Part shown: in pieces, positions 9,779-23,076 of the stretch
Numbering within the stretch: the first letter of the stretch is position 1
Layout: every line of letters starts with the position of its first letter
DNA from: Gammaproteobacteria bacterium
GTDB lineage: Bacteria; Pseudomonadota; Gammaproteobacteria; Steroidobacterales; GCA-2729495
DNA length: 64,000 nt
Direction of reading: 5' to 3'
NCBI GenBank assembly: GCA_040080965.1
Contig: JBEBHH010000004.1
Location: 42,170 to 106,169, forward strand
Notes under the pieces: generated by a model
The model's input: only the letters and a program-made list of their open reading frames with translations
The model's database searches: none
What the model was told of the DNA's origin: nothing
Position numbers and translations under genes: made by a program

Positions 9779-9782
9779 TCAC

Positions 9783-10838
9783 GTGACGATGAATGCGCTG
9801 GTCAACAGGCAGTGGCGGGTCGCGCGCTACCCGCGTCCCGACGAGGTAATCGGCCCGCAGCACTTCGAGTGGACCAGCGAGCCGGTCCAGCAGCCAGCCG
9901 ACGGCGAGTTCCTCGTGCGGACGCTGTGCCTTGCGCCGGTGCCGGCCCAGCGCGGCTACCTGGAGAAGAGCCACCACTCCTTCCTCGAGAACCTGGCGCT
10001 GGGCGAGGTGATGCGCGGCCGGGGCGTGGGCGAGATCGTCGCCTCGCGCCACCCGGACTATCGCGCCGGCGAGATCTTCGTCGGGTCGCTGGGCTGGCAG
10101 GACTATTCCATCCAGCGCCCGCGGGGTGCCGAGTTCGTCTTCAGCACGAAGAAGGTCACGCACCCCGTGAAGCCCCTGTCGGGCGAGCTTGGGGTCCTTG
10201 GCCAGGCAGGAGCAACGGCGTACTTCGGGCTGCTGGAGGTGGGCGCCCTGAAAACGGGCGACAACGTGCTGGTCTCGGCGGCGGCGGGCGGCGTCGGCTC
10301 GGTCGCAGGGCAGATCGCCCGGATCCGGGGCGCGAAGCTCGTCGTGGGCACTGCCGGGTCGGATGCCAAGTGCCGCTGGCTGCGCGAGGAGCTGGGCTTC
10401 CACGCCACCATCAACTACCGCACCGAGGACGTCGCCGCACGCCTCGCCGAACTGTTTCCCGACGGCATCGACGTGTTCTTCGACAACGTGGGCGGGGACA
10501 TCCTGAACGCCGGCCTGGGCCGCCTGGCCATGCATGCACGCATCGTGATCTGCGGCTTCATCGCCAGCGACTACTCGCCCGGGCCGCACCAGGGGCCGAT
10601 CAACTACCAGTGCATGGTCTACAAGCGCGCGCGAATGGAAGGCTTCGTCGTTTTCGACTACTGGAACCGCTACGGCGAGGCCGAGCGGGACCTCCGCGCC
10701 TGGCACCGCGACGGCCAGCTGAAGATCGCAGAGGACATCGACGAGGGGCTGGAGAAGATGCCCCTGTCCCTGGCGAGCCTTTTCACCGGCGGCAATACCG
10801 GCGTGAAGATCTGCCGCGTGGCCCCGGATCCCCTTTAA
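9783..10838 (+). CDS. NADP-dependent oxidoreductase, medium-chain dehydrogenase/reductase family (CurA/YncB-type alkenal/one reductase-like)
   Basis: Nucleotide-binding block VSAAAGGVGSVAGQIARIRGAKLVVGTAGS. Overall length 351 aa. GTG at 9783, with an alternative ATG at 9789. Confidence 0.8.
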   Translation: MTMNALVNRQWRVARYPRPDEVIGPQHFEWTSEPVQQPADGEFLVRTLCLAPVPAQRGYLEKSHHSFLENLALGEVMRGRGVGEIVASRHPDYRAGEIFVGSLGWQDYSIQRPRGAEFVFSTKKVTHPVKPLSGELGVLGQAGATAYFGLLEVGALKTGDNVLVSAAAGGVGSVAGQIARIRGAKLVVGTAGSDAKCRWLREELGFHATINYRTEDVAARLAELFPDGIDVFFDNVGGDILNAGLGRLAMHARIVICGFIASDYSPGPHQGPINYQCMVYKRARMEGFVVFDYWNRYGEAERDLRAWHRDGQLKIAEDIDEGLEKMPLSLASLFTGGNTGVKICRVAPDPL

Positions 10839-11869
10839 CGCAGCTTCGGCATCACCTTCTCGGCGAACAGCCGCGTCTGGCCGATCATGGCCTCCTGCCG
10901 GGCGCCGTGGGGCGTCGGCACGGGCGAGCCGCCGAGCAGGTTCACGTGGTCGAGGCCCAGGCCGATCAGGGCCTGCAGCCGGTCGAGGCACTTGGCCGGC
11001 GGGCCACAGATGGAGAACCAGTCCACGAACTGGTCGTCCACCATCTGCAGGTGCTCGCCCTCGTTCTGTGCGTGCCGGGCCATGTCGTAGCCCGACTTCA
11101 TCTTCACCGCCAGGTCCTTGAGCTGGGGCGGCAGGTGCTCGACGGGCGAGTCCTTCATGCCCGCGAAGTGCGCGACCATGCCGGAAATCATGCGGCCCAG
11201 GTTGATGGCGCGCTTCTCGTCGGGATCGCAGACCAGGTTGACGTAGGCGCCGACGCTGAGCGTGGCCCGGTCCCGGCCGGTCTCCTTCAGCCGCGCATGC
11301 AGGGTCTTCAGTGCCCAGTCGATGCGCTCGGGGGCGCTGCCCACCGCGAAGGTCACGCGATCGGCGATGTCGGCGGCCATGCGGATGGTGGCCGGACCCG
11401 TGCAGGCCAGGTCCAGCGGCACGGCAGGCAACCCGCCGGGCTCCAGCCAGCGCATGCGGCTGGCGGTCTCGCCACGCATCACGGTCTCGCCACGAAGGTA
11501 ACCCCGCACCTGTTCGACGTACGTGCGCAGTTGCGCCGTCGTGGCGTTACGCTGGCCGATGTGGGCCGCCGAGGAATCGCCTCGCCCGATGCCGCAGCGG
11601 GCCCGGCCGCCGGACTCGACCTGCAGTGTCGCGAGGGCGCCGGCCGTTACCGACGAATCGCGCGTCACGGGATTGGTGACGCCCGTGCCGAGAAACAGGC
11701 GCGTCGTGCGCGCGGCGGCCAGGCTCAGCTGGCCGTAGGGCTCGGGGCTGAGGCACTGGGTGTCCGGGCACAGCAGGGCGTCGAAGCCCATGGCCTCGAT
11801 CTCCACGGCGAGGCGCGCCGTATAGCCCGCCGACGGTTCCATCACGATGCCAAATTCGGTCCTGGCCAT
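10835..11869 (-). CDS. LLM-class F420/flavin-dependent oxidoreductase
   Basis: Only the C-terminal 344 aa of the 813-aa track ORF look real: MARTEFGIVMEPSAGYTARLAVEIEAMGFDALLCPD..GIGRGDSS..SICGPPAKCLDRLQALIGLGLDHVNL. The ATG at 11869 is in frame. The upstream part of the track ORF is a shadow of the MFS gene. Confidence 0.8.
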   Translation of the reverse strand: MARTEFGIVMEPSAGYTARLAVEIEAMGFDALLCPDTQCLSPEPYGQLSLAAARTTRLFLGTGVTNPVTRDSSVTAGALATLQVESGGRARCGIGRGDSSAAHIGQRNATTAQLRTYVEQVRGYLRGETVMRGETASRMRWLEPGGLPAVPLDLACTGPATIRMAADIADRVTFAVGSAPERIDWALKTLHARLKETGRDRATLSVGAYVNLVCDPDEKRAINLGRMISGMVAHFAGMKDSPVEHLPPQLKDLAVKMKSGYDMARHAQNEGEHLQMVDDQFVDWFSICGPPAKCLDRLQALIGLGLDHVNLLGGSPVPTPHGARQEAMIGQTRLFAEKVMPKLR

Positions 11870-11886
11870 GGGTCCGTTCGCTCCCG

Positions 11887-13254
11887 TCAGTGAATTCCGG
11901 CGCCGATCATCGTCGAGGACCGCGCCTCGGTGGGGTCGTATTTCACCGGGCGGCCACTCCTCAGCCAGACGAAAAGGGCAAAGGCAAACGCAGCCAGGTT
12001 CGCCGCGCCCACCAGGATGATCGGCCCGGAGATCCGCCAGTAGTCGAACAGGTAACCACCGGCAAAGCTCGTGATGAGGATACCCAGTGAGCCGCAGAAT
12101 CCGGCCAGGCCGATGACCGAGCCGCGGACGTCCAGCGGCGTCTCCTGGCCGAGGAGTCCCGTGACGGAGAGGATGACGCTCATCTGGCCCATGCCTACCA
12201 GGACGCAGCCCAGGTACCCCACGGGCGAGAACGGCTGTTCCTGCAGGCCGAGCAGCGTGTACCCCACGGCGCCCAGGAGCAGCGCCGCGACCACGCAGGC
12301 CAGCCGGTGGAAGCGGTCGATCAGCACGCCGGCAACCGGCGCCCACAACAGCGCCGATCCCTGGATCAGGGCGAACATCAGGCCCGCCTTGGCGAGGGCC
12401 TCGGGCCCGTCGAGCCCCTCGTCCCGCCCCACCCGCTGCAGCCACAGGGACACGAACGTGGCAACCAGCGTGAGGTCGGCGCGTGAGATGAATGAGCCTG
12501 CGTAGCAGACCAGCAGGCGCGGATTGTCCCGGCCCTGCCGGATGCCGATCTGCAGGATCCGCGGCAGGCTCATCCGGGTGCTCCTGCCCGTTGGCGTGCC
12601 ACCTTTCAGTCCCAACTGCATGACCATCGCCGTGACGGCTGCGAGTCCCGCCATCACGAACAGCATGTAACGACCGGCCTCGGCGCTGCTCATTCCCTGC
12701 GCCTTGAAGATCGTGGGCAGGGCGGCGAAGAGCGCCGTGGCGAGGCCGATCCCGAGGCCATTGAGCACGCCGGAGACGCCGGCGATCTTGCCGCGCGACT
12801 TCTCCGCCGGGTAGTCGGCCGCCGTCACGGCGATCATCACGCCCACGAAGGCCAGGCCGATGGCGTACACGAAGCGGCCCACGTAGAGGTCGCCGACGGT
12901 GCTGGCAATACCGTAGACCGCGAATCCGGCACCGGCGATGAGGGTGCCCGTGGCGTAGAGCGGCCGGCGTCCGACCCGGTCGGAAAGCCCGCCCGCGAAG
13001 CTGACCAGGGCCAGCACCACGATCTCGTGCATGGTGATGAGCAGGCCCGTCACCTGGCCGTGCCGCTCCGGCGGTATCCCGATGATCTCGGTCAGGACAT
13101 AGGGCTGGGAGAAACTCAGGAAACTGATCACCGGCATGATGGCCAGGCATACATATAAGTATGTCCAGGCGTTCAGGCCGCTCATGCCCGTGGCGAACTC
13201 CAAGGGGCCCAGTCGATAGCCCGGCGAGGCCGCGGCGGGAATGCTGTTGCTCAA
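11887..13254 (-). CDS. MFS transporter
   Basis: 455 aa, about 12 hydrophobic helices, and MFS loop motif GGLSDRVGRRPL between TM2 and TM3. Confidence 0.85.
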   Translation of the reverse strand: MSNSIPAAASPGYRLGPLEFATGMSGLNAWTYLYVCLAIMPVISFLSFSQPYVLTEIIGIPPERHGQVTGLLITMHEIVVLALVSFAGGLSDRVGRRPLYATGTLIAGAGFAVYGIASTVGDLYVGRFVYAIGLAFVGVMIAVTAADYPAEKSRGKIAGVSGVLNGLGIGLATALFAALPTIFKAQGMSSAEAGRYMLFVMAGLAAVTAMVMQLGLKGGTPTGRSTRMSLPRILQIGIRQGRDNPRLLVCYAGSFISRADLTLVATFVSLWLQRVGRDEGLDGPEALAKAGLMFALIQGSALLWAPVAGVLIDRFHRLACVVAALLLGAVGYTLLGLQEQPFSPVGYLGCVLVGMGQMSVILSVTGLLGQETPLDVRGSVIGLAGFCGSLGILITSFAGGYLFDYWRISGPIILVGAANLAAFAFALFVWLRSGRPVKYDPTEARSSTMIGAGIH

Positions 13255-13300
13255 GTTCCTTGGTCTCCCCGTCCACCGGGAGGTCGCCGGCGACGGTCGA

Positions 13301-13338
13301 GTATCGCCCAGAAGGCCGGCCCGCGGCCGGGGCGATAC
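13301..13338. promoter_or_regulatory. Nested inverted repeat in the divergent MFS / operon promoter region
   Basis: GTATCGCCC (13301-13309) pairs with GGGCGATAC (13330-13338). The inner CCGGCC (13316-13321) pairs with GGCCGG (13325-13330). Confidence 0.35.
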
Positions 13339-13402
13339 ACTTTGTTACAGTGAGGCCAACAGGCGGCGACTAGTCTTGCCCCAACCACCAGGGAGAACAC
13401 CC

Positions 13403-14248
13403 GTGAAGAAAGAAGCCAAGATCCGCCCCTTCTGGTACTCCGACGTCTGGCTGTTCCCCAAGCTCATCACGATCATTACCAGCCTCGACAAGGACGGCAA
13501 GGTCAACGCCGCGCCCTACTCCCACATCATGCAGTACGACGTGATGGCCAAGAACCCGCGCATGATCGTCGGCTTCCGCCAGGACTCCCACACGTTCCAG
13601 AACATCTGCGAGACGAAGCAGTTCGTCGTCAATTGCCCGACCGCCGACTACCTGGACGACATGATGGAGACGGCACGGTTCTACCCGGAGGGCGTCAACG
13701 AACTCGAACACACCCGCTTCACGATGATTCCGTCTCTCCACGTGAAGCCACCCTCCATCAAGGAGTGCCCGCAGATCGCCGAGTGCGAGGCGGAGGAGAT
13801 CGTCCGCCTGGAAAAGAGCAGCGGCATCGTGATCGCGAAGATCAAGGCGCTGGTCTTCGATGAGGAGCTCATCGACATGGGGCGCGAGGAGCGCATCCGC
13901 AAGATGAACCTGCCCATCGGCCTGGGCGATGAGGACCGCCAGGACTACTTCCACACCACGCTGGGGCACATCTCGATGCACCAGCTGGGTGAGGCACCGG
14001 ACGCGTTCAAGGGCGGCGAAGTGCGCCTTGGCATGACCTGGGATGCGGACGCCCTGCAGTCACTGATGACGATCCCGCCCATGGTGCGCAAGATGGTGAC
14101 GGACCAGACGGAGGAGTACTGCCGGTCGAAGGGTGACGACAAAGTCACCCACGCCCGCTTCACCCAGTACTCCATCGAGCAGGGCATGACGCCCGAGCTC
14201 ATGGAGCGGTTCCAGAAGAAGAAGAGGGCGGCAGGGGGACAGACTTAA
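13403..14248 (+). CDS. Flavin-reductase-like (FMN-binding split-barrel) protein with PCP_red-like C-terminal tail
   Basis: Start moved to the GTG at 13403 (in frame with the track ORF, GGGAGA 7 nt upstream). LITIITSLDKDGKVNAAPYS..TFQNICETKQFVVNCP resembles PF01613-type reductases. The tail is LGMTWDADALQSLMTIPPMVRKMVTDQTEEYCRSKGDDKVTHARF. Confidence 0.65.
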   Translation: MKKEAKIRPFWYSDVWLFPKLITIITSLDKDGKVNAAPYSHIMQYDVMAKNPRMIVGFRQDSHTFQNICETKQFVVNCPTADYLDDMMETARFYPEGVNELEHTRFTMIPSLHVKPPSIKECPQIAECEAEEIVRLEKSSGIVIAKIKALVFDEELIDMGREERIRKMNLPIGLGDEDRQDYFHTTLGHISMHQLGEAPDAFKGGEVRLGMTWDADALQSLMTIPPMVRKMVTDQTEEYCRSKGDDKVTHARFTQYSIEQGMTPELMERFQKKKRAAGGQT

Positions 14249-14259
14249 AGTCTGTCCCC
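14235..14259 (+). other. Perfect 11-bp stem hairpin with the TAA stop codon of the preceding gene as its loop
   Basis: GGGGACAGACT-TAA-AGTCTGTCCCC read directly. No U-tract follows (TCCCAAATCTATG). It lies between genes 1 and 2 of the operon. Confidence 0.6.
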
Positions 14260-14269
14260 TCCCAAATCT

Positions 14270-15205
14270 ATGTGGCGTTTTATACGACAGAGCATGCTGA
14301 TCCTCGCCGTTCTCGGCGTCGTGGGACTCGGGTTCGCCCTCTGGGCCTACCAGGACATTCCCGCCGCCGAACTCGAGGCCCGGTATGCGGGGCCCGCGTC
14401 ACGCTTCATCAACATCGACGGCGTCCGCATGCATTACCGCGACGAGGGCACCGGCCCCGTCGTGGTGCTCTTCCACGCCAACTTCTCCAACCTGATCGAC
14501 TGGGATCCCTGGGTGGACGCCCTCAAGGACCGGTACCGGGTGGTGCGCGTCGACATGACCAGCCACGGGCTGACCGGCCCGGATCCAACAGGCGACTACA
14601 CCCTGCCCCGCACCCTGGCGCTGACCGAGCGCTTCATCGATGCCCTCGGGATCGAAAAGGCGACGCTCGGCGGCACGTCCCTCGGCGGCACCGTCGCCAT
14701 TCACTACACGGCGCGGCACCCCGAGCGCGTGGAGCGCCTGATCCTGCTCAGCCCCGGGTCCCTCGAAGGCAAGGAAAAGATGCGCACCGGCGGCGTGCCG
14801 AAAGTTGGCTACGTACTCAAGTACATCCTGCCCCGCGCCCTGCCCGAGTCGATGCTGCGCAGTGGTTTCGGCCCGCCGGCCGAGCCGCCCAAGGAGCTGG
14901 TGGACCGCTGGTACGACATGTGGATGCGCGAGGGCCAGCGCGAAGCGCAGCTGGACCGGCTCTCCCAGTACGTGGCGGGCGACATCGAGGGCCTGGTGCG
15001 CTCCATCCGGGTCCCCGTGCTGCTGCTCTGGGGCGAGGCCAACTCGACGGCCAAGTTCGAGCAGTCGGTCGAGTTCCGTGAACTGCTCAAGGACACCCCG
15101 TCGCTGACCTTCATCAGCTACCCCGGCGTCGGGCACATGGCCGTGGAGCAGGCCGGCGCCGAGATCGGCAGGGACGTGCGCGCCTGGCTAGACACGCCGA
15201 TCTGA
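14270..15205 (+). CDS. Membrane-anchored alpha/beta hydrolase
   Basis: N-terminal TM anchor MLILAVLGVVGLGFALWAY, HANFS oxyanion region, nucleophile elbow GGTSLGG and C-terminal GVGHM histidine. Confidence 0.8.
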   Translation: MWRFIRQSMLILAVLGVVGLGFALWAYQDIPAAELEARYAGPASRFINIDGVRMHYRDEGTGPVVVLFHANFSNLIDWDPWVDALKDRYRVVRVDMTSHGLTGPDPTGDYTLPRTLALTERFIDALGIEKATLGGTSLGGTVAIHYTARHPERVERLILLSPGSLEGKEKMRTGGVPKVGYVLKYILPRALPESMLRSGFGPPAEPPKELVDRWYDMWMREGQREAQLDRLSQYVAGDIEGLVRSIRVPVLLLWGEANSTAKFEQSVEFRELLKDTPSLTFISYPGVGHMAVEQAGAEIGRDVRAWLDTPI

Positions 15206-16227
15206 TGCGGGTCGACGTCATCCTGGACCCTGGCACTTCGCCCTGGGAGGTGAAGGAGCTGGGACTGCTGGCCGAGCGCTACGGCATCAACGCCGTGTGG
15301 AGCTCCAACTACCCCTCCTCCCGGGACCCCTTCCTCACCCTGGCCCCGCTCGCCCTGGCCTCCACGAGCATCCGGCTTGGACCGCTGGTGGTCACGGCCT
15401 ACGAGCAGCATCCCTTCAAGACCGCCAAGGCACTGGCGACCCTCAACGAGCTCTGCCACGGCCGCGCCAACATCCTGATCGGCGGCCCCACTGGCGTGAA
15501 CGCCGCGATGGGCATGGGCGTCGAGCGCATGGTGGGCCGGGTCAGGGAGAGCGTGGAGGTAGTCAGGGCCGCCGGGCCCGACCGGCCGCTCAACTACAAG
15601 GGCAAGATCTTCCAGGTGTGGAACTACCAGCCCACGTGGGCGACCGACGCGCCACCGCGCGTCTACGTGGGCGCCAACAAACCCCAGATGATGCGCATGG
15701 CCGCCGGCGTCGCCGACCACATCATGGTGGGCGACCCCCTGCCCCGCCGCTTCGCGAGCACGATGACGATGCTCGACGGGTACCTGGCCGAGGCGGGGCG
15801 CACGCGCCGGCAGGTGACCGTGAGTGGCCTGGTAGCCTGGCACGTCAAGGCGGATCGGGCGCACTCGATCGCCGAGGCGCGCCAGCAGCTCGCACTGCGG
15901 GGCATGCTGGATCCCTGGTACCTGGAGGAATTCCTGACCCCCGACGAGTGCAGCCTGGTGGACAGCAACCGCAATGCCTTCTTCAAGGCCTACAAGAACC
16001 GGACGGACGTGGTGCCTGGCGTGCCCGAGGCCGTGCTGCAGAAGCTGGTGGACAACCTGAGCCTGGCCGGCACACCCGACGACCTGGACCAGCACATCGA
16101 GCGACTGCACGCCCTCGGCCGACTCGGACTGAACGAGGTGGCGCTGAAGCTGCACGAGGATCAGGCCGACGCCATCCGCCTGATCGGCGAGCGCGTAGTG
16201 CCGGCCCTCCAGCCGGAGGCTGCCTGA
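15205..16227 (+). CDS. LLM-class flavin/F420-dependent oxidoreductase (paralogue of 5791-6801)
   Basis: MRVDVILD..GINAVWSSNYPSSRDP..LNELCHGRANILIGG..VYVGANKPQMMRMAAGVADH..LIGERVVPAL. The ATG shares one nt with the hydrolase TGA (TGATG at 15203-15207). Confidence 0.8.
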   Translation: MRVDVILDPGTSPWEVKELGLLAERYGINAVWSSNYPSSRDPFLTLAPLALASTSIRLGPLVVTAYEQHPFKTAKALATLNELCHGRANILIGGPTGVNAAMGMGVERMVGRVRESVEVVRAAGPDRPLNYKGKIFQVWNYQPTWATDAPPRVYVGANKPQMMRMAAGVADHIMVGDPLPRRFASTMTMLDGYLAEAGRTRRQVTVSGLVAWHVKADRAHSIAEARQQLALRGMLDPWYLEEFLTPDECSLVDSNRNAFFKAYKNRTDVVPGVPEAVLQKLVDNLSLAGTPDDLDQHIERLHALGRLGLNEVALKLHEDQADAIRLIGERVVPALQPEAA

Positions 16228-16231
16228 CGGC

Positions 16232-17095
16232 ATGAACAGCGATATCGCGCCCGACAGCTTCGTCACGAGCCCGCTCCGGGACAACTGGTACCAGTCCAGT
16301 TCGTTCTACGGCTCGTCGTTCGCCCTCATCACCTCGGTCGACGAGGCCGGCGTCACGAGCATCGGCCCCTACCAGCTGAGCTTCCCGTTCGAGGTCATCA
16401 AGCGCCGTTCCTGGATGGTGATCAGCCGCCCGAGCTCCAACACCGTCGCGAATGTCCGCCGCACGCTGAAGTGCGCGCTTAACTTCGTCGAGTACGACCG
16501 GGCGCAGATCGAGACCATCCTGAAGTTCGGCTACCCGGGCCAGCCGCCCGCGGAGAAGATGGCCTACAACACCTTCACGCTGGTGGACAGCCCGACGCCG
16601 GGCCGGACCGGCCCCGGCCTGCCGCAGATCATCGGCGAGGCCTTCCAGGTGTTCGAATGCACGCTCGACGTCGACCGGATCGCAGCGAACCCGATCCTCC
16701 GGGACTCGGCGTCGGCCCACCTGCTGCTCAACATCGACAACATCCTCGTCAAGCAGCGCTGGAAGAGCCGGATCGACGGCAGCGGCGACGAAATGCCCCG
16801 CGTGCCGCTGACCTACGGCTTCCGGGGCGGCGCGACGTTCTGGTTCGGCGAGGCCGAGCCCGCCTACAAGCTGCCCATCCCGGACCTGGGCGCCCGGCAC
16901 GAGGTGGTGCACTACGAGGCCAACCGGATCGACGAGGTCGTGCGCTTCACGCTGGACGCGTCGAAGCAGCTCACGGGCATTCCCCGCCCGTTCCTGCGCC
17001 AGGTGCTGGAAGGCATCGTGCGGCAGGCCAGGGCGCGGGGAGTGACGGAGATCAGCCCGGAGTTCCTGGAACTGCTTAACAAGGAGCGGAAGTAG
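16232..17095 (+). CDS. Second flavin-reductase-like protein with PCP_red-like C-terminal tail
   Basis: FALITSVDEAGVTSIGPYQ..TVANVRRTLKCALNFV. The tail is VVRFTLDASKQLTGIPRPFLRQVLEGIVRQARARGVTEISPEFL. 4-nt gap after the LLM gene. Confidence 0.6.
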   Translation: MNSDIAPDSFVTSPLRDNWYQSSSFYGSSFALITSVDEAGVTSIGPYQLSFPFEVIKRRSWMVISRPSSNTVANVRRTLKCALNFVEYDRAQIETILKFGYPGQPPAEKMAYNTFTLVDSPTPGRTGPGLPQIIGEAFQVFECTLDVDRIAANPILRDSASAHLLLNIDNILVKQRWKSRIDGSGDEMPRVPLTYGFRGGATFWFGEAEPAYKLPIPDLGARHEVVHYEANRIDEVVRFTLDASKQLTGIPRPFLRQVLEGIVRQARARGVTEISPEFLELLNKERK

Positions 17096-17854
17096 ATGCT
17101 GTCCTACATCTTCCTGGCGTATGCCGTCGTCCACCTGGGCCTGCTGGCCTGGGGCTGGGGCCGATGGACGCCTGCCGGCCGCCCCGTGGCGCTGACCATC
17201 GCGCTGTTCGCGAACACCCTGCTCTGGTACGACAACTTCCGCATCGGCATGGGCCGGTTCATCGGCGAGGGCGACCTGCTCTACAACCTGAGCATCCCCG
17301 CCTTCTTCTGGCACTGGACCATGCTGCCGCTGTTCGTGATCGTCGCCGGCTCGATCGCCCGGCTCGCCGGACTCGAGTGGGCGCGGAGCCGGCTGGTCAT
17401 GGGGCTGTTCTGCCTGGTGGCGGTCGGCCTGTTCGCCAAGGACCTGCCCTACACCGTCGGCCTCCTGTTCGGTGAGACGGGACCGATGCCGGCCGTCGAA
17501 CTGCGGCCGGCCTGCATCGCGGACACGGTGCGCTACTCCACCAAGGTCTCGGCCAGCCAGTTCTGCGGGCCCGAGGCCACTGTGTTCCGCAACGGCCCCA
17601 GTTCGCTGCCGGCCATCGTCATGAACGTCATCATGGTGGCCGTCGGTATCGCGCTGTGGATCCGCCACCGCTGGAAATGGCTGGTGATCGGACCCGGCCT
17701 GATGTTCATCGCCGCGGGCGGCGCCCCCTTGTGGGGCGCGTACATGCTGCCGGTGGCCAACTTCGGCGAGATACTGTTCACGGCGGGTGTGCTGGTCACC
17801 ATCCTCCGGTTCAGTCCCGGCCGGGCACTTGCCCGTGGAGGCACGCAGACGTGA
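17096..17854 (+). CDS. Polytopic membrane protein, family not recognised
   Basis: 252 aa, about 6 hydrophobic helices. The ATG directly abuts the preceding TAG. Confidence 0.6.
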   Translation: MLSYIFLAYAVVHLGLLAWGWGRWTPAGRPVALTIALFANTLLWYDNFRIGMGRFIGEGDLLYNLSIPAFFWHWTMLPLFVIVAGSIARLAGLEWARSRLVMGLFCLVAVGLFAKDLPYTVGLLFGETGPMPAVELRPACIADTVRYSTKVSASQFCGPEATVFRNGPSSLPAIVMNVIMVAVGIALWIRHRWKWLVIGPGLMFIAAGGAPLWGAYMLPVANFGEILFTAGVLVTILRFSPGRALARGGTQT

Positions 17855-19035
17855 ACAGGGACACGGCCGTAAAGCTCGCACAGGACGCCATCCGGGCGAA
17901 GAACAAACACCTGGTGGATGCCGTGCTCCGGATCCGCGCGGAGAAGGGCGGCACGTCCCCCGGACCCGGTCCGGTATCGGCGCTGCCCACCATCGCTGTG
18001 ACCTGCGCCACGGGCTGGGAGTGCTACGCGATCGTCGACGAGCTCGTCCAGACCGGCAGGTTCCGGGTGCGGGCCCTGTACCGGACCCCCGGCACCCAGG
18101 CCGCGGCCCGGCTGGAGGCCCTCCACGCCAGCGCGGAAAAGGACCATCCCGGAATACTGACCCTGCACGCCGGCGTCGACATGAATTCCGAAGAGGCCCT
18201 GACCCGGAGCTTCGCCGGCTGCGACGGGGTGGTGCTGTACACCACAGCCAATACGAGCAAGGCCGGCAAGATCAACAATCACGGCAACGACCCCGCCGGG
18301 GGCCGGGCGGCCGTGATGCGCCAGGTCATGGCAGCCCTCGGCGCCCTGAAAGCCAACCCCTCCGTCCGGCACGTCATCACCCTGATCTTCCCGACGGACA
18401 AGGTGACCGCCATCGCGGACGACGCGCCCCCGGTGCCCTGGTGGATCCACCAGAAGCTGCGCCTCTCGGATTTCCTGCGCGGCCAGGGGATCAACGTCAC
18501 CTGCATCCATCGCCCGGCCTACTACTACGCCATGCACCGGGTGGACTACGCCACGACCGAGACCCAGTACCGGGGCGACAGCAGCCTGTCGAAGACCATG
18601 ATCCGGGAGAACAACCTACCCGGCGTCACGGACCCGGACTTCCTGGTGAACTGGATCGACGTGCGGGACGTCGGCAAGTGGGTGGGCACCGTCTTCGAGT
18701 ACCCGCAGGTGTTCTCGAACCAGGACTTCTCGATTGCCTCGTCGGCGCACACGGGTGACGAACTCATCGCCATCGCGGAGAAGAGCAACCGGCACGGCAC
18801 CCGGTTCCGGTACCGCCAGTTCCCGCGCTGGCTGATGAAGCTGATCAGCATCTTCACCGACGAGGTGGTGTATCCCCTGCGCTATGCCCAGTGGTACGGC
18901 GAGGATGGCAACGCCTACGACTTTGCCAGTAACGAGGACCTGGCCGACCTGGAGCGCATCCACCCGCGCTGGTCCTTCGAGCGGGAGCTCGAGGCCTGGG
19001 GCATCAACGACATCAAGCCGGCGAAACAGCGATGA
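17851..19035 (+). CDS. NmrA-like NAD(P)-binding family protein
   Basis: Start moved to the in-frame GTG at 17851 (GTGA overlap with the upstream stop). TIAVTCATGWECYAIVDELVQTGRFRVRAL Rossmann-like N-terminus and NmrA-like length. Call is by recall. Confidence 0.6.
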   Translation: MNRDTAVKLAQDAIRAKNKHLVDAVLRIRAEKGGTSPGPGPVSALPTIAVTCATGWECYAIVDELVQTGRFRVRALYRTPGTQAAARLEALHASAEKDHPGILTLHAGVDMNSEEALTRSFAGCDGVVLYTTANTSKAGKINNHGNDPAGGRAAVMRQVMAALGALKANPSVRHVITLIFPTDKVTAIADDAPPVPWWIHQKLRLSDFLRGQGINVTCIHRPAYYYAMHRVDYATTETQYRGDSSLSKTMIRENNLPGVTDPDFLVNWIDVRDVGKWVGTVFEYPQVFSNQDFSIASSAHTGDELIAIAEKSNRHGTRFRYRQFPRWLMKLISIFTDEVVYPLRYAQWYGEDGNAYDFASNEDLADLERIHPRWSFERELEAWGINDIKPAKQR

Positions 19036-19787
19036 ATGCCCTGCGAGTCCTTGCCGGCATCGCGGTGGCAGGCGTGCTCGGGGGCTGCTCCGATCCGCCC
19101 GGCCAGTCGACGGAACCGATCGCGCCGCGGGCGGCGCGGCTGGACGACACCACCGGCATCACCCTGCCAGAACCCGCCGACGAGGGGTACTGCAAGGTGG
19201 CGCAGCAGATCCTGGCCAGCACCACCCTGACCGGCAGCAACACGGTCTTCACCGACATGCCGGAGTACCGCCACTCGAAGCCCTCGGCCGATCCGCACCG
19301 GATCTACCAGGTGGTGACCTACGACGGGGCCATGCCCGTCGTCGTGTCCTGCAAGACGAAGACGGCGGCACACCTGCGCGCGGTGTACGGGCCGGAGGCC
19401 GCCGGCACCCAGTATTTCTGCCCGGAACTCGGCCGGCGCGTCCAGCGCCAGGCGGTCGTGGAACTGACGGCGTCCGGGCAGGCGGAGGCCGCGGCCCGGG
19501 CGGCAGCGTTCATCGTGGACGACAACGAGCCCTACATGACGGGCCGGGACTACCTGGCCGATTTCGAGCTCAGCTACCAGGCTGCCGACGGCACCCTGCA
19601 CCTGAACTCGTTCGGGCTCTTCCAGAACTACGACAGCTGGATCACCGGCTTCCTGCCGTGGCAGGTGCAGGGGCAGAGCTATTGCCACGTGGCCACGGTG
19701 GACTACGTGAAGGCGCTCGCCGCGGGTGAAATCGAGCCCGGCACCGTGATCACCACGGCGGATGACGCGCCAGTCACGCCCCAGTGA
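19032..19787 (+). CDS. Lipoprotein, family not recognised
   Basis: Signal plus lipobox MNALRVLAGIAVAGVLGGC. ATGA overlap with the NmrA-like gene stop. 251 aa. Confidence 0.6.
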   Translation: MNALRVLAGIAVAGVLGGCSDPPGQSTEPIAPRAARLDDTTGITLPEPADEGYCKVAQQILASTTLTGSNTVFTDMPEYRHSKPSADPHRIYQVVTYDGAMPVVVSCKTKTAAHLRAVYGPEAAGTQYFCPELGRRVQRQAVVELTASGQAEAAARAAAFIVDDNEPYMTGRDYLADFELSYQAADGTLHLNSFGLFQNYDSWITGFLPWQVQGQSYCHVATVDYVKALAAGEIEPGTVITTADDAPVTPQ

Positions 19788-19825: not shown

Positions 19826-21154
19826 TCAGACCGGGAAGCTGACAGAGACTTCGAGTCCCCGGCGCTGCGGCCCGGGACCAAACGCCAGCGTCGCGTTATG
19901 GAGTTCGGCAATGCGCCGGACGATGGAAAGCCCGAGGCCACTGCCGCCGCCCGTGGCCGCGGAGCCCCGGAAAAAGCGCTCTCCCAGGCGCCCCCGCTCG
20001 TCCGGGATGACACCGGCTCCGGCATCGGTCACGCGGAGCACGGCCCGGCCATGCTCCTTCGCGACCTCGACGAGAACGGGCGGTGCACCGTGACTGACGG
20101 CATTCGCCACGAGATTGCGCACGACGATCGCCAGCAAGGCGGCATTGCCCTGCACCTGGATGCCGGCACCAGCGTCCAGCTCGATGTCGAGCTCCGCCCC
20201 GGCCGCCGATGCCAGTTCCGCAATGGCGGTTCGGGTGACCTGGCCGAGGGGCACAGCGACGAACGAAGCTGCCGCCCCGCCCTGCTCGAGCCGCGCCAGG
20301 GTCAGCAGCTGATCCAGCAGGTCGGCCATGCGGTCCGAGGCACGGATCACCTGGTCCAGCGCCGCGTCGCGGGTCACCGCGCTGGGAGTCGTTCGCGCCA
20401 CCTCCGCCTGGGCCCGGACGGCGGCCACCGGCTTGCGAAGTTCGTGGGACGCGTCGGCGGTGAAGCGCCGTTCCAGGTCGCTCGCGCGGCGGATGCGCTC
20501 GAAGAGCTCGTTCAGGCGGCGCACCAGCGGCAGGGTTTCGGCGGGACCCGCCAGCTCGACCGGGCGCAGCTCCAGGGGGTCACGGGCGGCTACCTGGTCA
20601 CTCAACAGCGCAAGGGGCCGCAGCGCGCGCCCGATGCTCCACCACACCAGCAGGCCGAGGACGGGCAGCCCCGCCGCCAGGGGCAGCAGCGCGTTCAGCG
20701 CGACACGCCGGGCAATGGCCTCCCGGACGCTGTGATCCTCGGCTACCTCGATCAGGAATTCCCGCTCCGTGTCCCAGGTGGTGAATACCCGCCAGCGGCG
20801 CCCGGCGAGCTCGTTGTCGGAGAAACCTTCGGTGGCGGGCGAGAGCCGCTGCTTCGGTGCATCCGCTGACGACAGCACGATTTCGCCGCTGTCATTCCAG
20901 ACCTGGAAGCTGACCCGGTGGCCATAGGACCCGTTTGCAGCGAACTCACCGAGGTCCTCGGGGTCCAGTTCGAGCAGCTCGTGCCCGGCGCTGGCGGCCA
21001 GGATCGAGGTGACCTGCGCCAGGTGTGCATCCAGGAGACGGTCGGCCTCCCGGTGCGCGTCGAAGTAGGCGGCAACGGTCACGGCCAGCCAGGCGGCCGC
21101 GACCGACCCGAGAAGCAGGGTGATGAGGCGGCGCCGGATGGACACTTCAGTCAT
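19826..21154 (-). CDS. Two-component sensor histidine kinase (periplasmic sensor, QseC/PhoQ-like layout)
   Basis: Two TM segments flanking a periplasmic region, H-box FTADASHELRKPVAAV, N box VRNLVANAVSH and G boxes DAGAGV / GSGLGLSIV. Confidence 0.85.
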   Translation of the reverse strand: MTEVSIRRRLITLLLGSVAAAWLAVTVAAYFDAHREADRLLDAHLAQVTSILAASAGHELLELDPEDLGEFAANGSYGHRVSFQVWNDSGEIVLSSADAPKQRLSPATEGFSDNELAGRRWRVFTTWDTEREFLIEVAEDHSVREAIARRVALNALLPLAAGLPVLGLLVWWSIGRALRPLALLSDQVAARDPLELRPVELAGPAETLPLVRRLNELFERIRRASDLERRFTADASHELRKPVAAVRAQAEVARTTPSAVTRDAALDQVIRASDRMADLLDQLLTLARLEQGGAAASFVAVPLGQVTRTAIAELASAAGAELDIELDAGAGIQVQGNAALLAIVVRNLVANAVSHGAPPVLVEVAKEHGRAVLRVTDAGAGVIPDERGRLGERFFRGSAATGGGSGLGLSIVRRIAELHNATLAFGPGPQRRGLEVSVSFPV

Positions 21155-21828
21155 TCATTGCCGGCCTCAGGCCCCCGTGGCAGCACATAGCCGACCCCGC
21201 GCACGGTGCGGATCACGTCGGCCGCCAGCTTGCGCCGCAGGTGATGGATGTGCACCTCGATCGCATTGCTTTCCACCGCAGCATCCCAGTCGTAGAGCCG
21301 CTCTTCAAGCTGCTCCCGCGTCAGCACCCGGCCGCAGTTCAGCATGAGTTCGCGCAGGAGGTCGAACTCCCGGGGATTGAGCTCCACGTTCCTCCGCCGG
21401 AACTTCACCTTGCGCGTGCCCGCGTCCATCAGGAGTTCCCCGACCGACAGCTGGTCGGAACCGGCGCCGTGGGCGCGGCGCACTAGGGCCCGGAGCCGGG
21501 CGGCCAGCTCGGCGAGGGCTACCGGCTTGACCACGTAGTCGTCGGCGCCCGCATCGAGTCCGGTCACGCGATCGTCGATGGCGTCCCGGGCCGTGAGCAC
21601 CAGCACCGGCACCGCCTGCCCCCGGGCCCTGATCTGCCGGAGTACTTCGAGGCCCGAGCGCCTCGGCAGGCCCAGGTCGAGGACCACCGCGGCAAATTCA
21701 CCGGACCGAAGTGCCGTGTCGGCGGCGATGCCGTCGCGGACCCAGTCCACCGCAAAGCCCCGGTCCCGGAGCCCGGCCTGCAGGGCATCACCGAGCAGGC
21801 TGTCGTCCTCCACGACCAGTACGTGCAT
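21151..21828 (-). CDS. OmpR-family response regulator
   Basis: REC domain (MHVLVVEDD..VVLDLGLP..VKP) plus a winged-helix output (..IRTVRGVGYVL). ATGA overlap with the kinase start. Confidence 0.9.
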   Translation of the reverse strand: MHVLVVEDDSLLGDALQAGLRDRGFAVDWVRDGIAADTALRSGEFAAVVLDLGLPRRSGLEVLRQIRARGQAVPVLVLTARDAIDDRVTGLDAGADDYVVKPVALAELAARLRALVRRAHGAGSDQLSVGELLMDAGTRKVKFRRRNVELNPREFDLLRELMLNCGRVLTREQLEERLYDWDAAVESNAIEVHIHHLRRKLAADVIRTVRGVGYVLPRGPEAGNE

Positions 21829-21831
21829 CGT

Positions 21832-22563
21832 TCAGTCCTCGTCTTCGCTGCCGGCGCGAGCGACCAGCGTCAGCGGTTCCAGGCCGGCCGAGGCCTCGGC
21901 CGGCGCACCGGGATTCCCAAGGCTAAAGGCCCAGAACCCGAGCACCCCGGAGAGCAATGCCACGCCGACGAAGGCGGCAAAGGTGCCCCGCACGCCGGCC
22001 GCGGCCTCGGCGCGCTTGTAGCCCGTGATCATGGCACCGACCAGGTTCTCCCGGTGCAGGAGGCTGCCCAGGATGACGCCGCCGATGTGGATCCCCACGA
22101 CCCACAGCCAGCCGTTGGCCAGGATCTCGTGGACCTCCTCCACCGCGTCGCCGCCGATATCGTTGTAGGTTGCATAGCCGGTGATCCCGGTGAGCGCCGC
22201 AAGACCCAGGATGGCCCAGATGGCGAAGCTGCCGGCCGGATTGTGCCCCAGGAAGCGCGGGTCGGACCGCCGGAACAGGCTGCGCGCGTAGTCGACGGCC
22301 TCCCGAGGCGAGAAGAGGAAGGACCGGAAGCGCGCGTAACGGGTGCCAACGAGCCCCCAGACGATGCGGAAGGCCACGAGCCCCAGCACGGTGTAGCCGA
22401 ACATGACGTGGACGTCCCGGAGCCGCTCGGTCTCGGAGAGCCAGTAGGCGCCCGCGAAGCTGGCCGCGAGTGCCCAGTGGAACACCCGCACCGGGAGGTC
22501 CCAGATCAGGACGCGGATGGTGCGATCGGGGCGTCCGGTGGCGTCAGTGGCAGTTGCGTTCAT
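21832..22563 (-). CDS. Cytochrome b (Ni/Fe-hydrogenase b-type cytochrome / cytochrome b561-like) membrane protein
   Basis: IRVLIWDLPVRVFHWALAASFAGAYW start typical of this family. Four helices with conserved His. Confidence 0.8.
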   Translation of the reverse strand: MNATATDATGRPDRTIRVLIWDLPVRVFHWALAASFAGAYWLSETERLRDVHVMFGYTVLGLVAFRIVWGLVGTRYARFRSFLFSPREAVDYARSLFRRSDPRFLGHNPAGSFAIWAILGLAALTGITGYATYNDIGGDAVEEVHEILANGWLWVVGIHIGGVILGSLLHRENLVGAMITGYKRAEAAAGVRGTFAAFVGVALLSGVLGFWAFSLGNPGAPAEASAGLEPLTLVARAGSEDED

Positions 22564-22590
22564 CGACGTGCTCCTCTGCTTCCCTGCCCG

Positions 22591-23064
22591 TTACTTCGGG
22601 GGCAGCTTGATGTTGCGTTCGCTGAAATTTCCCTGGTCCGCGGTCCGGTGGCAGGCCGCGCAATTGGCGGCGCCGCCGACCGCCGGCGATTTGAACCGGG
22701 CGGCGGAGATCTCGTCGTGCTCGCCCGTGAACCACCGCGTTTCCGTGATGCGCAGGGGCGGCGGCACGGGCTCGGGCTTGCCGGCCTTCGGCTTCCGGGA
22801 ATTCGCGGCGAGCCAGGCGGTGATGTCCTTCGCCACCGCCGGTTCGATGCTGGCGTCGGTGCCGAAGTGGTCACCGAGGCCCGCCATCACCCGCTGCCAG
22901 GAACCGGCGGACAGGAAACGCGCCGGGTAGGCCAGGTGACAGGCGCCGCACTCCTCCTGCCACGCCGGGTTCGGCGCTGGCGGCGGTGTCTTCGTGGCGC
23001 CCTCGGCCGCGGCCATCGCCGCGAGTCCGGTGAGGACGGTAATGGCAATCCTGTGGCTGATCAT
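22591..23064 (-). CDS. Dihaem cytochrome c (DHC family)
   Basis: Signal peptide and two CxxCH motifs (CGACH, CAACH). ECGACHLAYPARFLSAGSWQRVMAGLGDHFGTDASI matches my recollection of the DHC family. Confidence 0.75.
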   Translation of the reverse strand: MISHRIAITVLTGLAAMAAAEGATKTPPPAPNPAWQEECGACHLAYPARFLSAGSWQRVMAGLGDHFGTDASIEPAVAKDITAWLAANSRKPKAGKPEPVPPPLRITETRWFTGEHDEISAARFKSPAVGGAANCAACHRTADQGNFSERNIKLPPK

Positions 23065-23076
23065 GGCAGTGCTCCC

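What the first reader, a model, noticed from the sequence alone, without database searches (positions are those of the whole stretch)
13255..19787. Tightly coupled seven-gene LLM-oxygenase operon with two flavin-reductase-like modules and two unknown envelope proteins; no assignable pathway
Seen: seven plus-strand ORFs are packed with overlapping or abutting stop/start codons. These are TGATG at 15203-15207, a 4-nt gap at 16228-16231, TAG|ATG at 17093-17098, GTGA at 17851-17854 and ATGA at 19032-19035. The order is: flavin-reductase-like protein, membrane-anchored alpha/beta hydrolase (GTSLGG), LLM oxidoreductase, second flavin-reductase-like protein, polytopic membrane protein of no recognisable family, NmrA-like NAD(P) protein, and a lipoprotein of no recognisable family. 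An MFS transporter and a third LLM enzyme are transcribed divergently. There is no regulator gene inside the unit. Established: LLM enzymes plus flavin reductases form two-component flavin monooxygenases. Some of these perform Baeyer-Villiger oxygenations whose lactone/ester products are opened by alpha/beta hydrolases. Inference: this is an uncharacterised oxidative pathway, possibly acting on a cyclic ketone, terpenoid, steroid-like or ester substrate. The doubled reductase-like module and the coupling to membrane and lipoprotein components do not match any named pathway I know.
Basis: partly seen in the sequence, partly recalled or inferred. Interest (0 to 1): 0.7.

Follow-up and report, generated by a model that had tools for sequence, protein, structure and literature searches.

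The report
Fused operon around unusual flavin-reductase pair
This is a real seven-gene operon in an uncultured gammaproteobacterium that joins a conserved but uncharacterised flavin-type redox module to a clade-specific membrane module; its substrate is unknown, and it is moderately rather than highly unusual.

Summary
The first gene really starts at GTG 13403, not 13255.

The domain calls are right. Gene 4 has no Pfam hit, but profile comparison shows it is a paralogue of gene 1. Both combine a split-barrel flavin-reductase-like domain with a BchB-C-terminal-like (PCP_red) tail.

- The full seven-gene order occurs only in close relatives.
- The recurrent associations are gene 1 with gene 4, with a luciferase-like (LLM) enzyme, with an MFS transporter and with DUF1838. 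Genes 5-7 are a lineage-specific addition.
- Both LLM enzymes are closest to F420-type Mer reductases, not to flavin monooxygenases or Baeyer-Villiger enzymes.
- The hydrolase resembles PlaF, the membrane-anchored, periplasm-facing phospholipase. An invariant Asn replaces its catalytic Asp, so it is poorly placed to open a cytoplasmic lactone.
- Genes 5 (seven-helix membrane protein) and 7 (lipoprotein) give confident models with no convincing match among solved structures.
- A conserved direct repeat in the divergent promoter region suggests dedicated regulation.

No named pathway fits. I rate it a new variant of a multi-component LLM redox system, interest about 0.37.

The parts
10835..11878 (-). 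LLM3: Mer-type luciferase-like oxidoreductase, downstream of the MFS gene in the divergent operon
   Evidence: The best NCBIfam hit is TIGR03842 F420_CPS_4043 (5.9e-43, 147 bits against a cut-off of 295). The best solved structure is Mer 1Z69 (1.6e-26). It is 81-95% identical and syntenic in loci that carry g1.
11887..13254 (-). MFS transporter, transcribed divergently from g1
   Evidence: Pfam MFS_1 at 3.8e-37. The best NCBIfam hits are MamH/MamZ, below their cut-offs. It is found next to g1 in many loci.
13334..13352 (+). Conserved direct repeat (GATACAC-TTT-GTTACAG; consensus GTTACAG-N3-GTTACAG) in the MFS|g1 intergenic region; candidate operator for a response-regulator-type activator
   Evidence: It is nearly invariant in an alignment of 10 loci. 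It occurs once in the window, with 0 matches in shuffles. It occurs once per locus in the 8 loci that match the exact pattern; 6 of those sites lie in the aligned MFS-g1 intergenic region, and L013 and L043 lie beside g1.
13403..14248 (+). g1: split-barrel flavin-reductase-like domain plus PCP_red (BchB C-terminal-like) domain, 281 aa
   Evidence: Pfam Flavin_Reduct 1.2e-16 and PCP_red 1.3e-8, both above their cut-offs. Closest solved structures are 1EJE (1.7e-18) and NbaA 4Z85, and 2KRU for the tail. The start is fixed by orthologue alignment and the ribosome-binding site.
14270..15205 (+). g2: PlaF-like alpha/beta hydrolase with an N-terminal membrane anchor, Ser137 and His289, and Asn258 at the catalytic-acid position
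   Evidence: Pfam Abhydrolase_1 at 1.1e-22. It aligns to PlaF 6I8W over residues 3-308 against 3-305, E 1.7e-16. Asn258 is invariant in 11 orthologues. The PlaF triad is S137/D258/H286 and its catalytic domain is periplasmic (PMC9132575).
15205..16227 (+). g3: Mer-type luciferase-like oxidoreductase
   Evidence: Pfam Bac_luciferase at 1.2e-38. The best NCBIfam hit is Mer PRK02271 (5.2e-38, below its cut-off). The best solved structure is Mer 8QPM (1.9e-27). g3-like LLM genes directly follow g1 in 6 metagenome loci.
16232..17095 (+). g4: divergent paralogue of g1 (split barrel plus PCP_red-like tail), very highly conserved, no Pfam family
   Evidence: BLASTP against g1 gives 9e-8 over the full length. 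hhalign gives 97% probability, E 1.3e-10. Pfam gives only weak PNPOx_N and Flavin_Reduct hits at E about 0.1-0.2. There are 480 homologues, and the 20-sequence alignment has 79% mean column identity.
17096..17854 (+). g5: seven-helix inner-membrane protein with a Cys-pair loop predicted to face the periplasm; no known family
   Evidence: No Pfam or NCBIfam hit. The AlphaFold2 model has pLDDT 91.6. Foldseek returns only generic GPCR transmembrane-bundle matches, TM-score 0.27-0.52. Invariant residues are H13, D46, N47, R49, W72-H73-W74, C140, C157 and E225.
17851..19035 (+). g6: NmrA-like NAD(P)-binding protein with an N-terminal extension
   Evidence: Pfam NmrA at 5.3e-13, 49.7 bits against a cut-off of 27. 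The best solved structure is 5F5L, labelled 'monooxygenase', at 1.6e-5. It is translationally coupled to a g4 homologue in L003/L040.
19032..19787 (+). g7: lipoprotein (lipobox LGGC) with four invariant Cys; no known family or fold
   Evidence: No Pfam or NCBIfam hit. The AlphaFold2 model has pLDDT 83.7 and pTM 0.81. The best Foldseek match in the PDB has E 0.19 and TM-score 0.26. Homologues stand alone in unrelated contexts.
19826..21828 (-). Adjacent convergent two-component system (sensor kinase 19826-21154; OmpR-family regulator 21151-21828); a possible but unproven regulator
   Evidence: The best NCBIfam hits are QseC/PmrB and QseB/PmrA, below their cut-offs. It is syntenic with g5-g7 only in the close clade.

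Best explanation
The seven genes are very probably one transcript. They are best read as a lineage-specific fusion of two modules rather than a conserved seven-step pathway.

Module A is g1-g2-g3-g4 together with the divergent MFS-LLM3 pair. It is a multi-component flavin- or deazaflavin-dependent oxidoreductase system.
- g1 and g4 are paralogous two-domain proteins: a split-barrel flavin-reductase fold plus a BchB-C-terminal-like helical tail.
- I infer that they act together, probably as a heterodimer, as the hydride/electron-delivering component for the Mer-type LLM oxidoreductases g3 and LLM3.
- I infer that the substrate is a small hydrophobic or acidic molecule. The membrane-anchored PlaF-like esterase g2 would release or process it on the periplasmic face, and the MFS transporter would carry it across the inner membrane.

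Module B is g5 (7-TM protein), g6 (NmrA-like NAD(P) protein) and g7 (lipoprotein). It is a clade-specific addition. It probably couples cytoplasmic NAD(P)H chemistry to an inner-membrane or periplasmic step.

Shown here: the gene structure, the domain identities, the g1/g4 paralogy, the co-occurrence network, the PlaF-like architecture with Asn258, and the conserved operator-like repeat.

Inferred: heterodimer formation, direction of electron flow, cofactor (FMN versus F420), substrate class, and the topology-based order of steps.
For: Operon reality:
- The junctions and GC3 values are as described.
- No internal promoter-like or terminator-like site was found on the + strand.

g1/g4 paralogy:
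- BLASTP gives 9e-8 over the full length.
- hhalign gives 97% probability, E 1.3e-10.
- The g1 domains are above the Pfam cut-offs.

Co-occurrence:
- g1 lies within the fetched flanks of g4 in about 27 of the 80 GTDB loci, in several arrangements.
- These include divergent adjacent pairs in distant Gammaproteobacteria (L052, L055, L059, L060, L065) and nearby pairs in Actinomycetota (L067, L069).
- g1 is directly followed by a g3-like LLM gene in L137, L142, L148, L150, L156 and L162. It is followed by an MFS gene in L113-L117.
- L150 reads DUF1838-MFS-Flavodoxin_2 reductase-g1-LLM-MFS.

Modularity:
- L010-L013 and L170 carry LLM3-MFS|g1-g2-g3-g4 without g5-g7.
- L042 and L044 have the order g1-g2-g4-g3, and L038 has g1-g4.
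- The full order is found only in L007, L008, L051 and (partly) L014.
- In one distant locus (L091) a g5 homologue sits in a cytochrome-c-like/g5/NmrA-like/PNPOx_N gene string. A g6 homologue is coupled to a g4 homologue in L003/L040.

Other points:
- g2 aligns over its full length to the periplasm-facing PlaF.
- The conserved direct repeat is found only in this divergent promoter region.
Against: - No biochemical data exist for any member of the g1, g4, g5 or g7 families.
- All 80 genome loci returned are labelled MAG or uncultured.
- The LLM enzymes are closest to F420-dependent reductases. If they use F420H2 from a standard Fno or Fgd supplier, no dedicated reductase is needed.
- L150 encodes a separate Flavodoxin_2 NAD(P)H reductase next to g1. 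This suggests g1 may not itself be the NAD(P)H-oxidising component.
- g4 often occurs with none of the other genes in the fetched flanks (L015-L037).
- Asn258 in g2 may mean that it is not an efficient hydrolase.
- Homologues of g5 and g7 mostly occur alone in unrelated contexts. Their functional link to module A may therefore be incidental.
Confidence: 0.4

Rival explanations
1. A catabolic pathway in which an FMN-dependent two-component LLM monooxygenase performs a Baeyer-Villiger or hydroxylation step on a cyclic ketone, terpenoid, steroid-like or ester substrate. The alpha/beta hydrolase then opens the lactone or ester.
For: - The operon contains an LLM enzyme, a PF01613 protein and an alpha/beta hydrolase.
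- An MFS importer is transcribed divergently.
- Upstream the window carries a TonB-dependent receptor, a Phenol_MetA_deg outer-membrane channel, a TetR regulator, another LLM and a CurA-like enone reductase. This set is typical of regions for catabolism of hydrophobic compounds.
- The g2 hit list in the PDB also includes meta-cleavage-product hydrolases, enol-lactonase and monoalkyl phthalate hydrolases.
Against: - The closest relatives of g3 and LLM3 are Mer/F420-type LLM families. FMN monooxygenase families score far lower: NtaA/DmoA 5e-9 and SfnG 3e-6.
- No monooxygenase-named or Baeyer-Villiger LLM chain appears among the PDB hits at E of 1e-5 or better.
- g2 is N-terminally anchored and collinear with PlaF, whose catalytic domain is periplasmic. 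It also lacks the catalytic Asp.
- The upstream catabolic-looking genes are syntenic only in close relatives.
Confidence: 0.15
2. An envelope-lipid remodelling or repair operon under two-component control. The PlaF-like g2 acts on membrane glycerolipids at the periplasmic leaflet. The MFS moves a lyso-lipid or released acyl product. The LLM, split-barrel and NmrA enzymes reduce or oxidise lipid keto, hydroxy or enone groups. g5 and g7 are envelope partners.
For: - g2 aligns over its full length to the membrane phospholipase A1 PlaF.
- g5 is a polytopic membrane protein and g7 is a lipoprotein.
- A PmrAB/QseBC-like two-component system is adjacent.
- In L003/L040 the g6-g4 pair is followed in the same direction by eptA, with dgkA and a PAP2 phosphatase next.
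- A YihG-type lysophosphatidic-acid acyltransferase and an enone reductase lie 3-4 kb upstream.
- From background knowledge, F420-type LLM enzymes acting on lipids are known in mycobacteria. Hydroxymycolic acid dehydrogenase appears among the weaker hits.
Against: - Asn258 replaces the catalytic Asp of PlaF.
- g2 is only weakly related to PlaF (E 1.7e-16; per-residue identity was not computed) and is equally close to many esterases.
- The MFS does not match the lysophospholipid transporter model.
- The eptA adjacency is seen in one lineage only.
- The two-component system is absent from L010-L013 loci that keep the operator repeat.
Confidence: 0.2
3. A tetrapyrrole- or bilin-handling system. 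The BchB-like tail of g1 and g4 caps a tetrapyrrole substrate. The split-barrel and NmrA-like proteins act like HugZ/ChuZ-type and BLVRB/ChuY-type enzymes.
For: - The PCP_red domain of g1 is above the Pfam cut-off and matches the BchB fragment 2KRU.
- A CpeT/CpcT-like gene follows a g4 homologue in L045.
- g5 homologues sit next to c-type cytochrome-like genes in L045 and L091.
- From background knowledge, split-barrel and NmrA/NAD_binding_10 folds include haem- and bilin-converting enzymes.
Against: - All these folds are generic.
- g6 has no PDB hit at E of 0.01 or better other than 5F5L/5F5N.
- The CpeT link is seen in L045 only, and no haem-uptake genes were seen in the fetched loci.
- The PCP_red match is a 45-residue helical motif whose function cannot be transferred.
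Confidence: 0.05

Closest known systems
Two-component flavin-dependent LLM systems (e.g. NtaA/NtaB, SsuD/SsuE, type II Baeyer-Villiger diketocamphane monooxygenases with Fred)
   Same: A luciferase-like TIM-barrel enzyme is encoded beside a PF01613 split-barrel protein. The g1-LLM adjacency recurs across metagenomes.
   Different: - The LLM enzymes are Mer/F420-like rather than monooxygenase-like.
- The reductase-like proteins are about 280 aa, carry a PCP_red-like C-terminal domain and occur as a co-conserved paralogue pair.
- One of the pair, g4, is too divergent for Pfam.
F420-dependent LLM oxidoreductases (Mer; TIGR03842 CPS_4043 family; mycobacterial lipid-acting LLM enzymes)
   Same: These are the best full-length sequence matches for g3, LLM3 and the fourth LLM.
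   Different: All scores are below the curated family cut-offs. The host is a gammaproteobacterium whose ability to make F420 is unknown. The association with split-barrel/PCP_red proteins is, to my knowledge, not described for these families.
PlaF (PA2949), membrane-bound phospholipase A1 of Pseudomonas aeruginosa (PDB 6I8W; PMC9132575)
   Same: g2 has a single N-terminal transmembrane anchor, is collinear over its full length, and has Ser137 and the catalytic His at equivalent positions.
   Different: The catalytic Asp258 is replaced by an invariant Asn. The match is weak (E 1.7e-16; identity not computed). The genomic context differs.
MTH152 (1EJE) and NbaA (4Z85) FMN-binding split-barrel proteins
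   Same: These are the closest solved structures to the N-terminal domain of g1, at 1.7e-18 and 5.8e-16.
   Different: They are about 190-216 aa and lack the linker and the PCP_red-like tail.

Membership tests
Two-component flavin-dependent LLM monooxygenase system | A PF01613 flavin-reductase-domain protein is encoded with the LLM | tested here: met
   g1 scores 61.7 bits on Flavin_Reduct against a cut-off of 27. g1 is directly followed by an LLM gene in 6 independent metagenome loci.
Two-component flavin-dependent LLM monooxygenase system | The LLM belongs to an FMN-dependent monooxygenase subfamily (SsuD, NtaA, LadA, LuxA or diketocamphane type) | tested here: not met
   The best NCBIfam and PDB hits are Mer/F420 families (5e-38; 1.9e-27). 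FMN families score 5e-9 or weaker.
Two-component flavin-dependent LLM monooxygenase system | The reductase is a small stand-alone NAD(P)H:flavin oxidoreductase that releases reduced flavin | not testable with these tools
   The architecture departs from the norm: 281 and 287 aa, an extra C-terminal domain, and a paralogue pair. Enzyme activity needs an assay.
Type II Baeyer-Villiger monooxygenase plus lactone hydrolase | The LLM is specifically similar to diketocamphane-type Baeyer-Villiger enzymes | tested here: not met
   Only Mer, one 'luciferase family protein' entry and hydroxymycolate dehydrogenase appear among the PDB chains at E of 1e-5 or better.
Type II Baeyer-Villiger monooxygenase plus lactone hydrolase | A soluble cytoplasmic lactone/ester hydrolase with an intact Ser-Asp-His triad | tested here: not met
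   g2 has an N-terminal membrane anchor, is collinear with the periplasm-facing PlaF, and has Asn258 at the Asp position in all 11 orthologues.
F420-dependent LLM oxidoreductases (Mer-like) | Score above the curated family cut-off | tested here: not met
   g3 scores 131 bits against 276 (PRK02271). LLM3 scores 147 bits against 295 (TIGR03842). These are the closest relatives, but neither protein is a member of a defined family.
F420-dependent LLM oxidoreductases (Mer-like) | The host genome encodes F420 biosynthesis genes | not testable with these tools
   None were seen among the window ORFs that were scanned. The rest of the genome is not available here.
PlaF-type membrane-bound phospholipase A1 | N-terminal transmembrane anchor and full-length collinearity | tested here: met
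   Residues 3-308 align to PlaF residues 3-305, E 1.7e-16.
PlaF-type membrane-bound phospholipase A1 | Ser137-Asp258-His286 catalytic triad | tested here: not met
   Ser137 and His289 are present. Asn258 replaces Asp and is invariant.
Pfam PCP_red (BchB C-terminal domain) | Score above the gathering threshold | tested here: met
   g1 scores 35.1 bits against 32.5. For g4 the domain is inferred only from its alignment to g1.
NmrA-like family | Score above the gathering threshold | tested here: met
   g6 scores 49.7 bits against 27.
Bacterial lipoprotein | Signal peptide ending in a lipobox Cys | tested here: met
   The g7 N-terminus reads ...GVLGGC. The 24-sequence alignment has an L-A-x-C consensus. 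No dedicated predictor was run.

The most novel reading that the evidence does not exclude
g1 and g4 would be the founding members of an undescribed class of heteromeric split-barrel flavoproteins. Each carries a BchB-type C-terminal cap domain, and the pair partners with Mer-type LLM oxidoreductases that may use F420. This would be a multi-component redox system confined to uncultured Gammaproteobacteria and Actinomycetota. In this clade it would be wired through a new seven-helix membrane protein (g5) and a new-fold lipoprotein (g7) to chemistry on the periplasmic side.
Probability: 0.3. Interest if true: 0.6.

Novelty: new variant of a known kind. Interest (0 to 1): 0.37.

Why it matters
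If the g1/g4 pair is a dedicated partner of Mer-type LLM enzymes, it would define a new architecture for multi-component flavin or deazaflavin redox systems. It would also give a handle on four protein families (g1, g4, g5, g7) with no characterised member. These families were found here only in MAGs and metagenomes, from lake, marine, sponge-associated and other samples.

The Asn-for-Asp PlaF-like hydrolase and the two models without a PDB analogue are concrete targets for structural and biochemical work.

This does not bear on a long-standing open question, and the substrate remains unknown.

Tried and rejected
- Exact-sequence look-up of g4 found nothing.
- A PDB profile search with the g4 family found nothing meaningful.
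- Pfam at permissive E-values gave nothing for g5 and g7.
- Foldseek against the PDB gave no match for g7 (best E 0.19). For g5 it gave only generic GPCR-like seven-helix bundles, TM-score 0.27-0.52, which I do not read as homology.
- g7 is unrelated to the nearby DUF1838 protein. DUF1838 has no PDB relative and no detectable relation to the CpeT-like protein.
- Literature searches for DUF1838, PF08369/PCP_red and F420 in Gammaproteobacteria gave nothing relevant.
- No riboswitch or other Rfam family was found in the window or in the g1 leader.
- A Pho-box reading of the direct repeat was considered and dropped. The repeat period is 10 nt, against the 11 nt I recall for Pho boxes, and the repeat occurs only in this one intergenic region.
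- The idea that g5 always pairs with cytochrome c, NmrA-like and split-barrel genes was rejected. Other g5 homologues stand alone or sit beside MFS genes.
- Neighbour families that recur around distant g4 homologues are lineage synteny, not functional partners. They include AMP-ligase, AceE, an SLC13 permease, quinone oxidoreductases, UbiD, LutB and GNAT-nitrilase, identified by reading the representative sequences.

Full report
**Origin and gene structure**

The window has 66-73% GC. g4 is 100% identical to a protein that NCBI annotates as ABL989_03255 from a "Gammaproteobacteria bacterium" MAG.

ORF listing and a junction script confirm seven + strand genes with GC3 of 0.91-0.95.

The one correction concerns g1. 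The long ORF from 13241 is an upstream extension. The real start is GTG 13403, preceded by GGGAGA. Ten orthologous loci place an ATG, GTG or TTG at the same aligned column.

No promoter-like or terminator-like site lies on the + strand inside the unit.

**Domain identities**

- g1: Pfam gives Flavin_Reduct (1.2e-16) plus PCP_red, the C-terminal domain of protochlorophyllide reductase subunit B (1.3e-8, above its cut-off).
- g2: alpha/beta hydrolase.
- g3: Bac_luciferase.
- g6: NmrA.
- g4, g5, g7: no family in Pfam or NCBIfam, even at permissive thresholds. g4 gives only PNPOx_N and Flavin_Reduct at E about 0.1-0.2.
- Divergently transcribed are an MFS transporter and a third LLM gene. A fourth LLM gene, 44% identical to g3 orthologues, lies at 5791-6801(-).
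- Convergent at the 3' end are a QseBC/PmrAB-like two-component system, then cytochrome b561, a dihaem cytochrome c and DUF1924. A DUF1838 gene and a DedA-fused FAD disulfide reductase follow on the + strand.

**g1 and g4 are paralogues**

BLASTP aligns g1 and g4 over their full length (E 9e-8). Profile-profile comparison of the two families gives 97% probability, E 1.3e-10, over 250 columns, including the C-terminal "IP..(V/F)(R/L)" helical motif.

The N-domain of g1 is closest to the FMN-binding protein 1EJE and the nitroreductase NbaA. Its tail matches the BchB fragment 2KRU.

An exhaustive search of 1.84 billion representative proteins found 1220 hits for g1. Only 16 clusters reached E below 1e-30, and only a handful were full-length. 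The rest were ordinary flavin reductases of about 190 aa that match the N-domain alone. The two-domain architecture is therefore rare.

The g4 family is very strongly conserved, with 79% mean column identity across 20 sequences that go down to 70% identity.

**Gene-neighbourhood evidence**

I fetched 80 GTDB species-representative loci anchored on g4, all labelled MAG or uncultured. I also fetched 80 metagenome loci anchored on distant g1 relatives. Both sets were searched with the window proteins.

- The full seven-gene order appears only in close relatives: L007, L008, L051, and L014 up to g5.
- L010-L013 and L170 have LLM3-MFS|g1-g2-g3-g4 and then lack g5-g7.
- L042 and L044 have the order g1-g2-g4-g3. 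L038 has g1-g4.
- Distant Gammaproteobacteria have g1 and g4 as a divergent adjacent pair (L052, L055, L059, L060, L065). Actinomycetota MAGs (L067, L069) have the two genes within about 1.2 kb.
- From the g1 side, a g3-like LLM gene follows directly in six loci. An MFS gene follows in five. DUF1838 precedes g1 in three.
- L150 reads DUF1838-MFS-Flavodoxin_2 reductase-g1-LLM-MFS.
- g6 is translationally coupled to a g4 homologue in L003/L040.
- A g5 homologue sits in a cytochrome-c-like/g5/NmrA-like/PNPOx_N gene string in L091. Other g5 and g7 homologues stand alone.
- Many g4 homologues have none of the partners in the fetched flanks.

The recurrent associations are therefore g1 with g4, with an LLM, with an MFS and with DUF1838. 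Relative to L010-type loci, the window's clade has the block g5-g6-g7 plus two-component system plus cytochromes inserted after g4.

**The LLM enzymes**

g3, LLM3 and the fourth LLM all have F420-dependent families as their best NCBIfam matches (Mer, TIGR03842 and others). Mer is also their best solved structure (1e-27 to 1e-21). FMN-monooxygenase families score 5e-9 or weaker. All scores are below the curated cut-offs.

The monooxygenase or Baeyer-Villiger reading is therefore not supported by sequence. The cofactor is undetermined.

**The hydrolase**

The best solved relatives of g2 are an Acinetobacter lipase (4OPM) and PlaF (6I8W). The PlaF alignment runs from residue 3 to 308, so it includes the N-terminal anchor.

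PlaF is an inner-membrane phospholipase A1 with a periplasmic catalytic domain and the triad S137/D258/H286 (PMC9132575). g2 keeps Ser137 and His289, but it has Asn258 in all 11 orthologues examined.

A periplasm-facing, acid-less hydrolase is a poor candidate for opening a cytoplasmic lactone.

**The two unknown proteins**

- g5 gives a confident model (pLDDT 91.6) of a seven-helix bundle with a loop carrying a conserved Cys pair, predicted to face the periplasm. It has an intramembrane cluster of invariant polar residues: H13, D46, N47, H73, N222 and E225. Foldseek finds only generic GPCR-like bundles.
- g7 has a lipobox and four invariant Cys. Its model has pLDDT 83.7 and pTM 0.81, and it has no PDB analogue (best E 0.19).

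**Regulation**

The 148-bp MFS|g1 intergenic region contains a nearly invariant direct repeat, GTTACAG-N3-GTTACAG. In the window it lies at 13334-13352 and reads GATACACTTTGTTACAGTG. Conserved GAGTAT and TAnnnT blocks flank it.

The repeat occurs once in the window, against 0 in shuffles. It occurs once per locus in the eight loci that match the exact pattern, in or beside that intergenic region.

Direct repeats with a 10-bp period fit an OmpR-family regulator such as the adjacent one. However, loci that lack a nearby two-component system keep the repeat, so this assignment is open.

No Rfam element is present.

**Synthesis**

The unit is a real operon that fuses a recurrent but uncharacterised redox module with a clade-specific envelope module.

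- I propose that g1 and g4 act together as the hydride-delivering component for the Mer-type LLM enzymes.
- g2 and the MFS would supply a substrate released in the periplasm.
- g5-g7 would add a membrane or periplasmic step.
- Confidence in this model is about 0.4.

No named pathway fits.

I class it as a new variant of multi-component LLM systems, of moderate interest.

Noticed in passing
window 13299-13376: The MFS|g1 intergenic region holds conserved non-coding blocks. These are GAGTATnnCCCAG (13299-13311), the direct repeat GATACAC-TTT-GTTACAG (13334-13350) and a TAnnnT block (TAGTCT, 13371-13376). All are conserved across 10 loci.
   Followed up: partly
window 14270-15205 (g2 residue 258): An invariant Asn sits where PlaF and the 4OPM lipase have the catalytic Asp. 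Ser137 and His289 are retained. This suggests altered chemistry or reduced hydrolase activity.
   Followed up: yes
window 5791-6801 (-), with 4814-5758 (-) and 3415-4164 (-): There is a fourth Mer-type LLM gene, about 44% identical to g3 orthologues. It sits beside a Phenol_MetA_deg outer-membrane channel and a TetR regulator. A TonB-dependent receptor (1-2256) and a DoxX gene lie further upstream.
   Followed up: partly
window 19826-23478 (-): A QseBC/PmrAB-like two-component system is followed by cytochrome b561, a dihaem cytochrome c (DHC) and DUF1924. In this clade the block is co-inserted with g5-g7, relative to loci L010-L013.
   Followed up: partly
window 23917-24756 (+); also L006, L021, L045, L141, L150, L156: DUF1838 proteins recur next to g1 or g4 homologues in distant genomes; the representative read (L006) has a Tat-like lipoprotein signal. 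The family has no relative among solved structures.
   Followed up: partly
window 23479-23916: Relatives carry a gene of about 255-283 aa with no known family between DUF1924 and DUF1838 (for example L007 17313-18164). It is absent from the window, and tblastn finds no trace.
   Followed up: yes
window 24756-26996 (+): A VTT/DedA membrane domain is fused to a MerA/dihydrolipoyl-dehydrogenase-like FAD disulfide reductase. The fusion is conserved in the close clade.
   Followed up: no
window 8873-10838 (+): A YihG-type lysophosphatidic-acid acyltransferase (above the NCBIfam cut-off) is followed by a CurA-like NADPH enone reductase, convergent with LLM3. Both are syntenic only in close relatives.
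   Followed up: partly
window 30484-32154 (-): An alpha/beta hydrolase is fused to an adenylate/guanylate cyclase domain.
   Followed up: no
window 53605-62535 (+): This is a 2976-aa ORF with GH94 supersandwich, GH94 catalytic and glucoamylase domains. From background knowledge, that is the architecture of cyclic beta-1,2-glucan synthases.
   Followed up: no
L091 7153-10067; L045 8808-16664: L091 carries the gene string cytochrome-c-like/g5 homologue/NmrA-like (263 aa)/PNPOx_N split barrel. L045 carries DUF1838 | g4 homologue, a CpeT/CpcT-like gene, a gene of unknown family, a cytochrome-c-like gene, a g5 homologue and a cytochrome c-GLUG gene.
   Followed up: partly
P0364 (representative-library hit to g1): This is a 388-aa g1 relative. 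Its C-terminal extension appears to contain a second PCP_red-like repeat.
   Followed up: no
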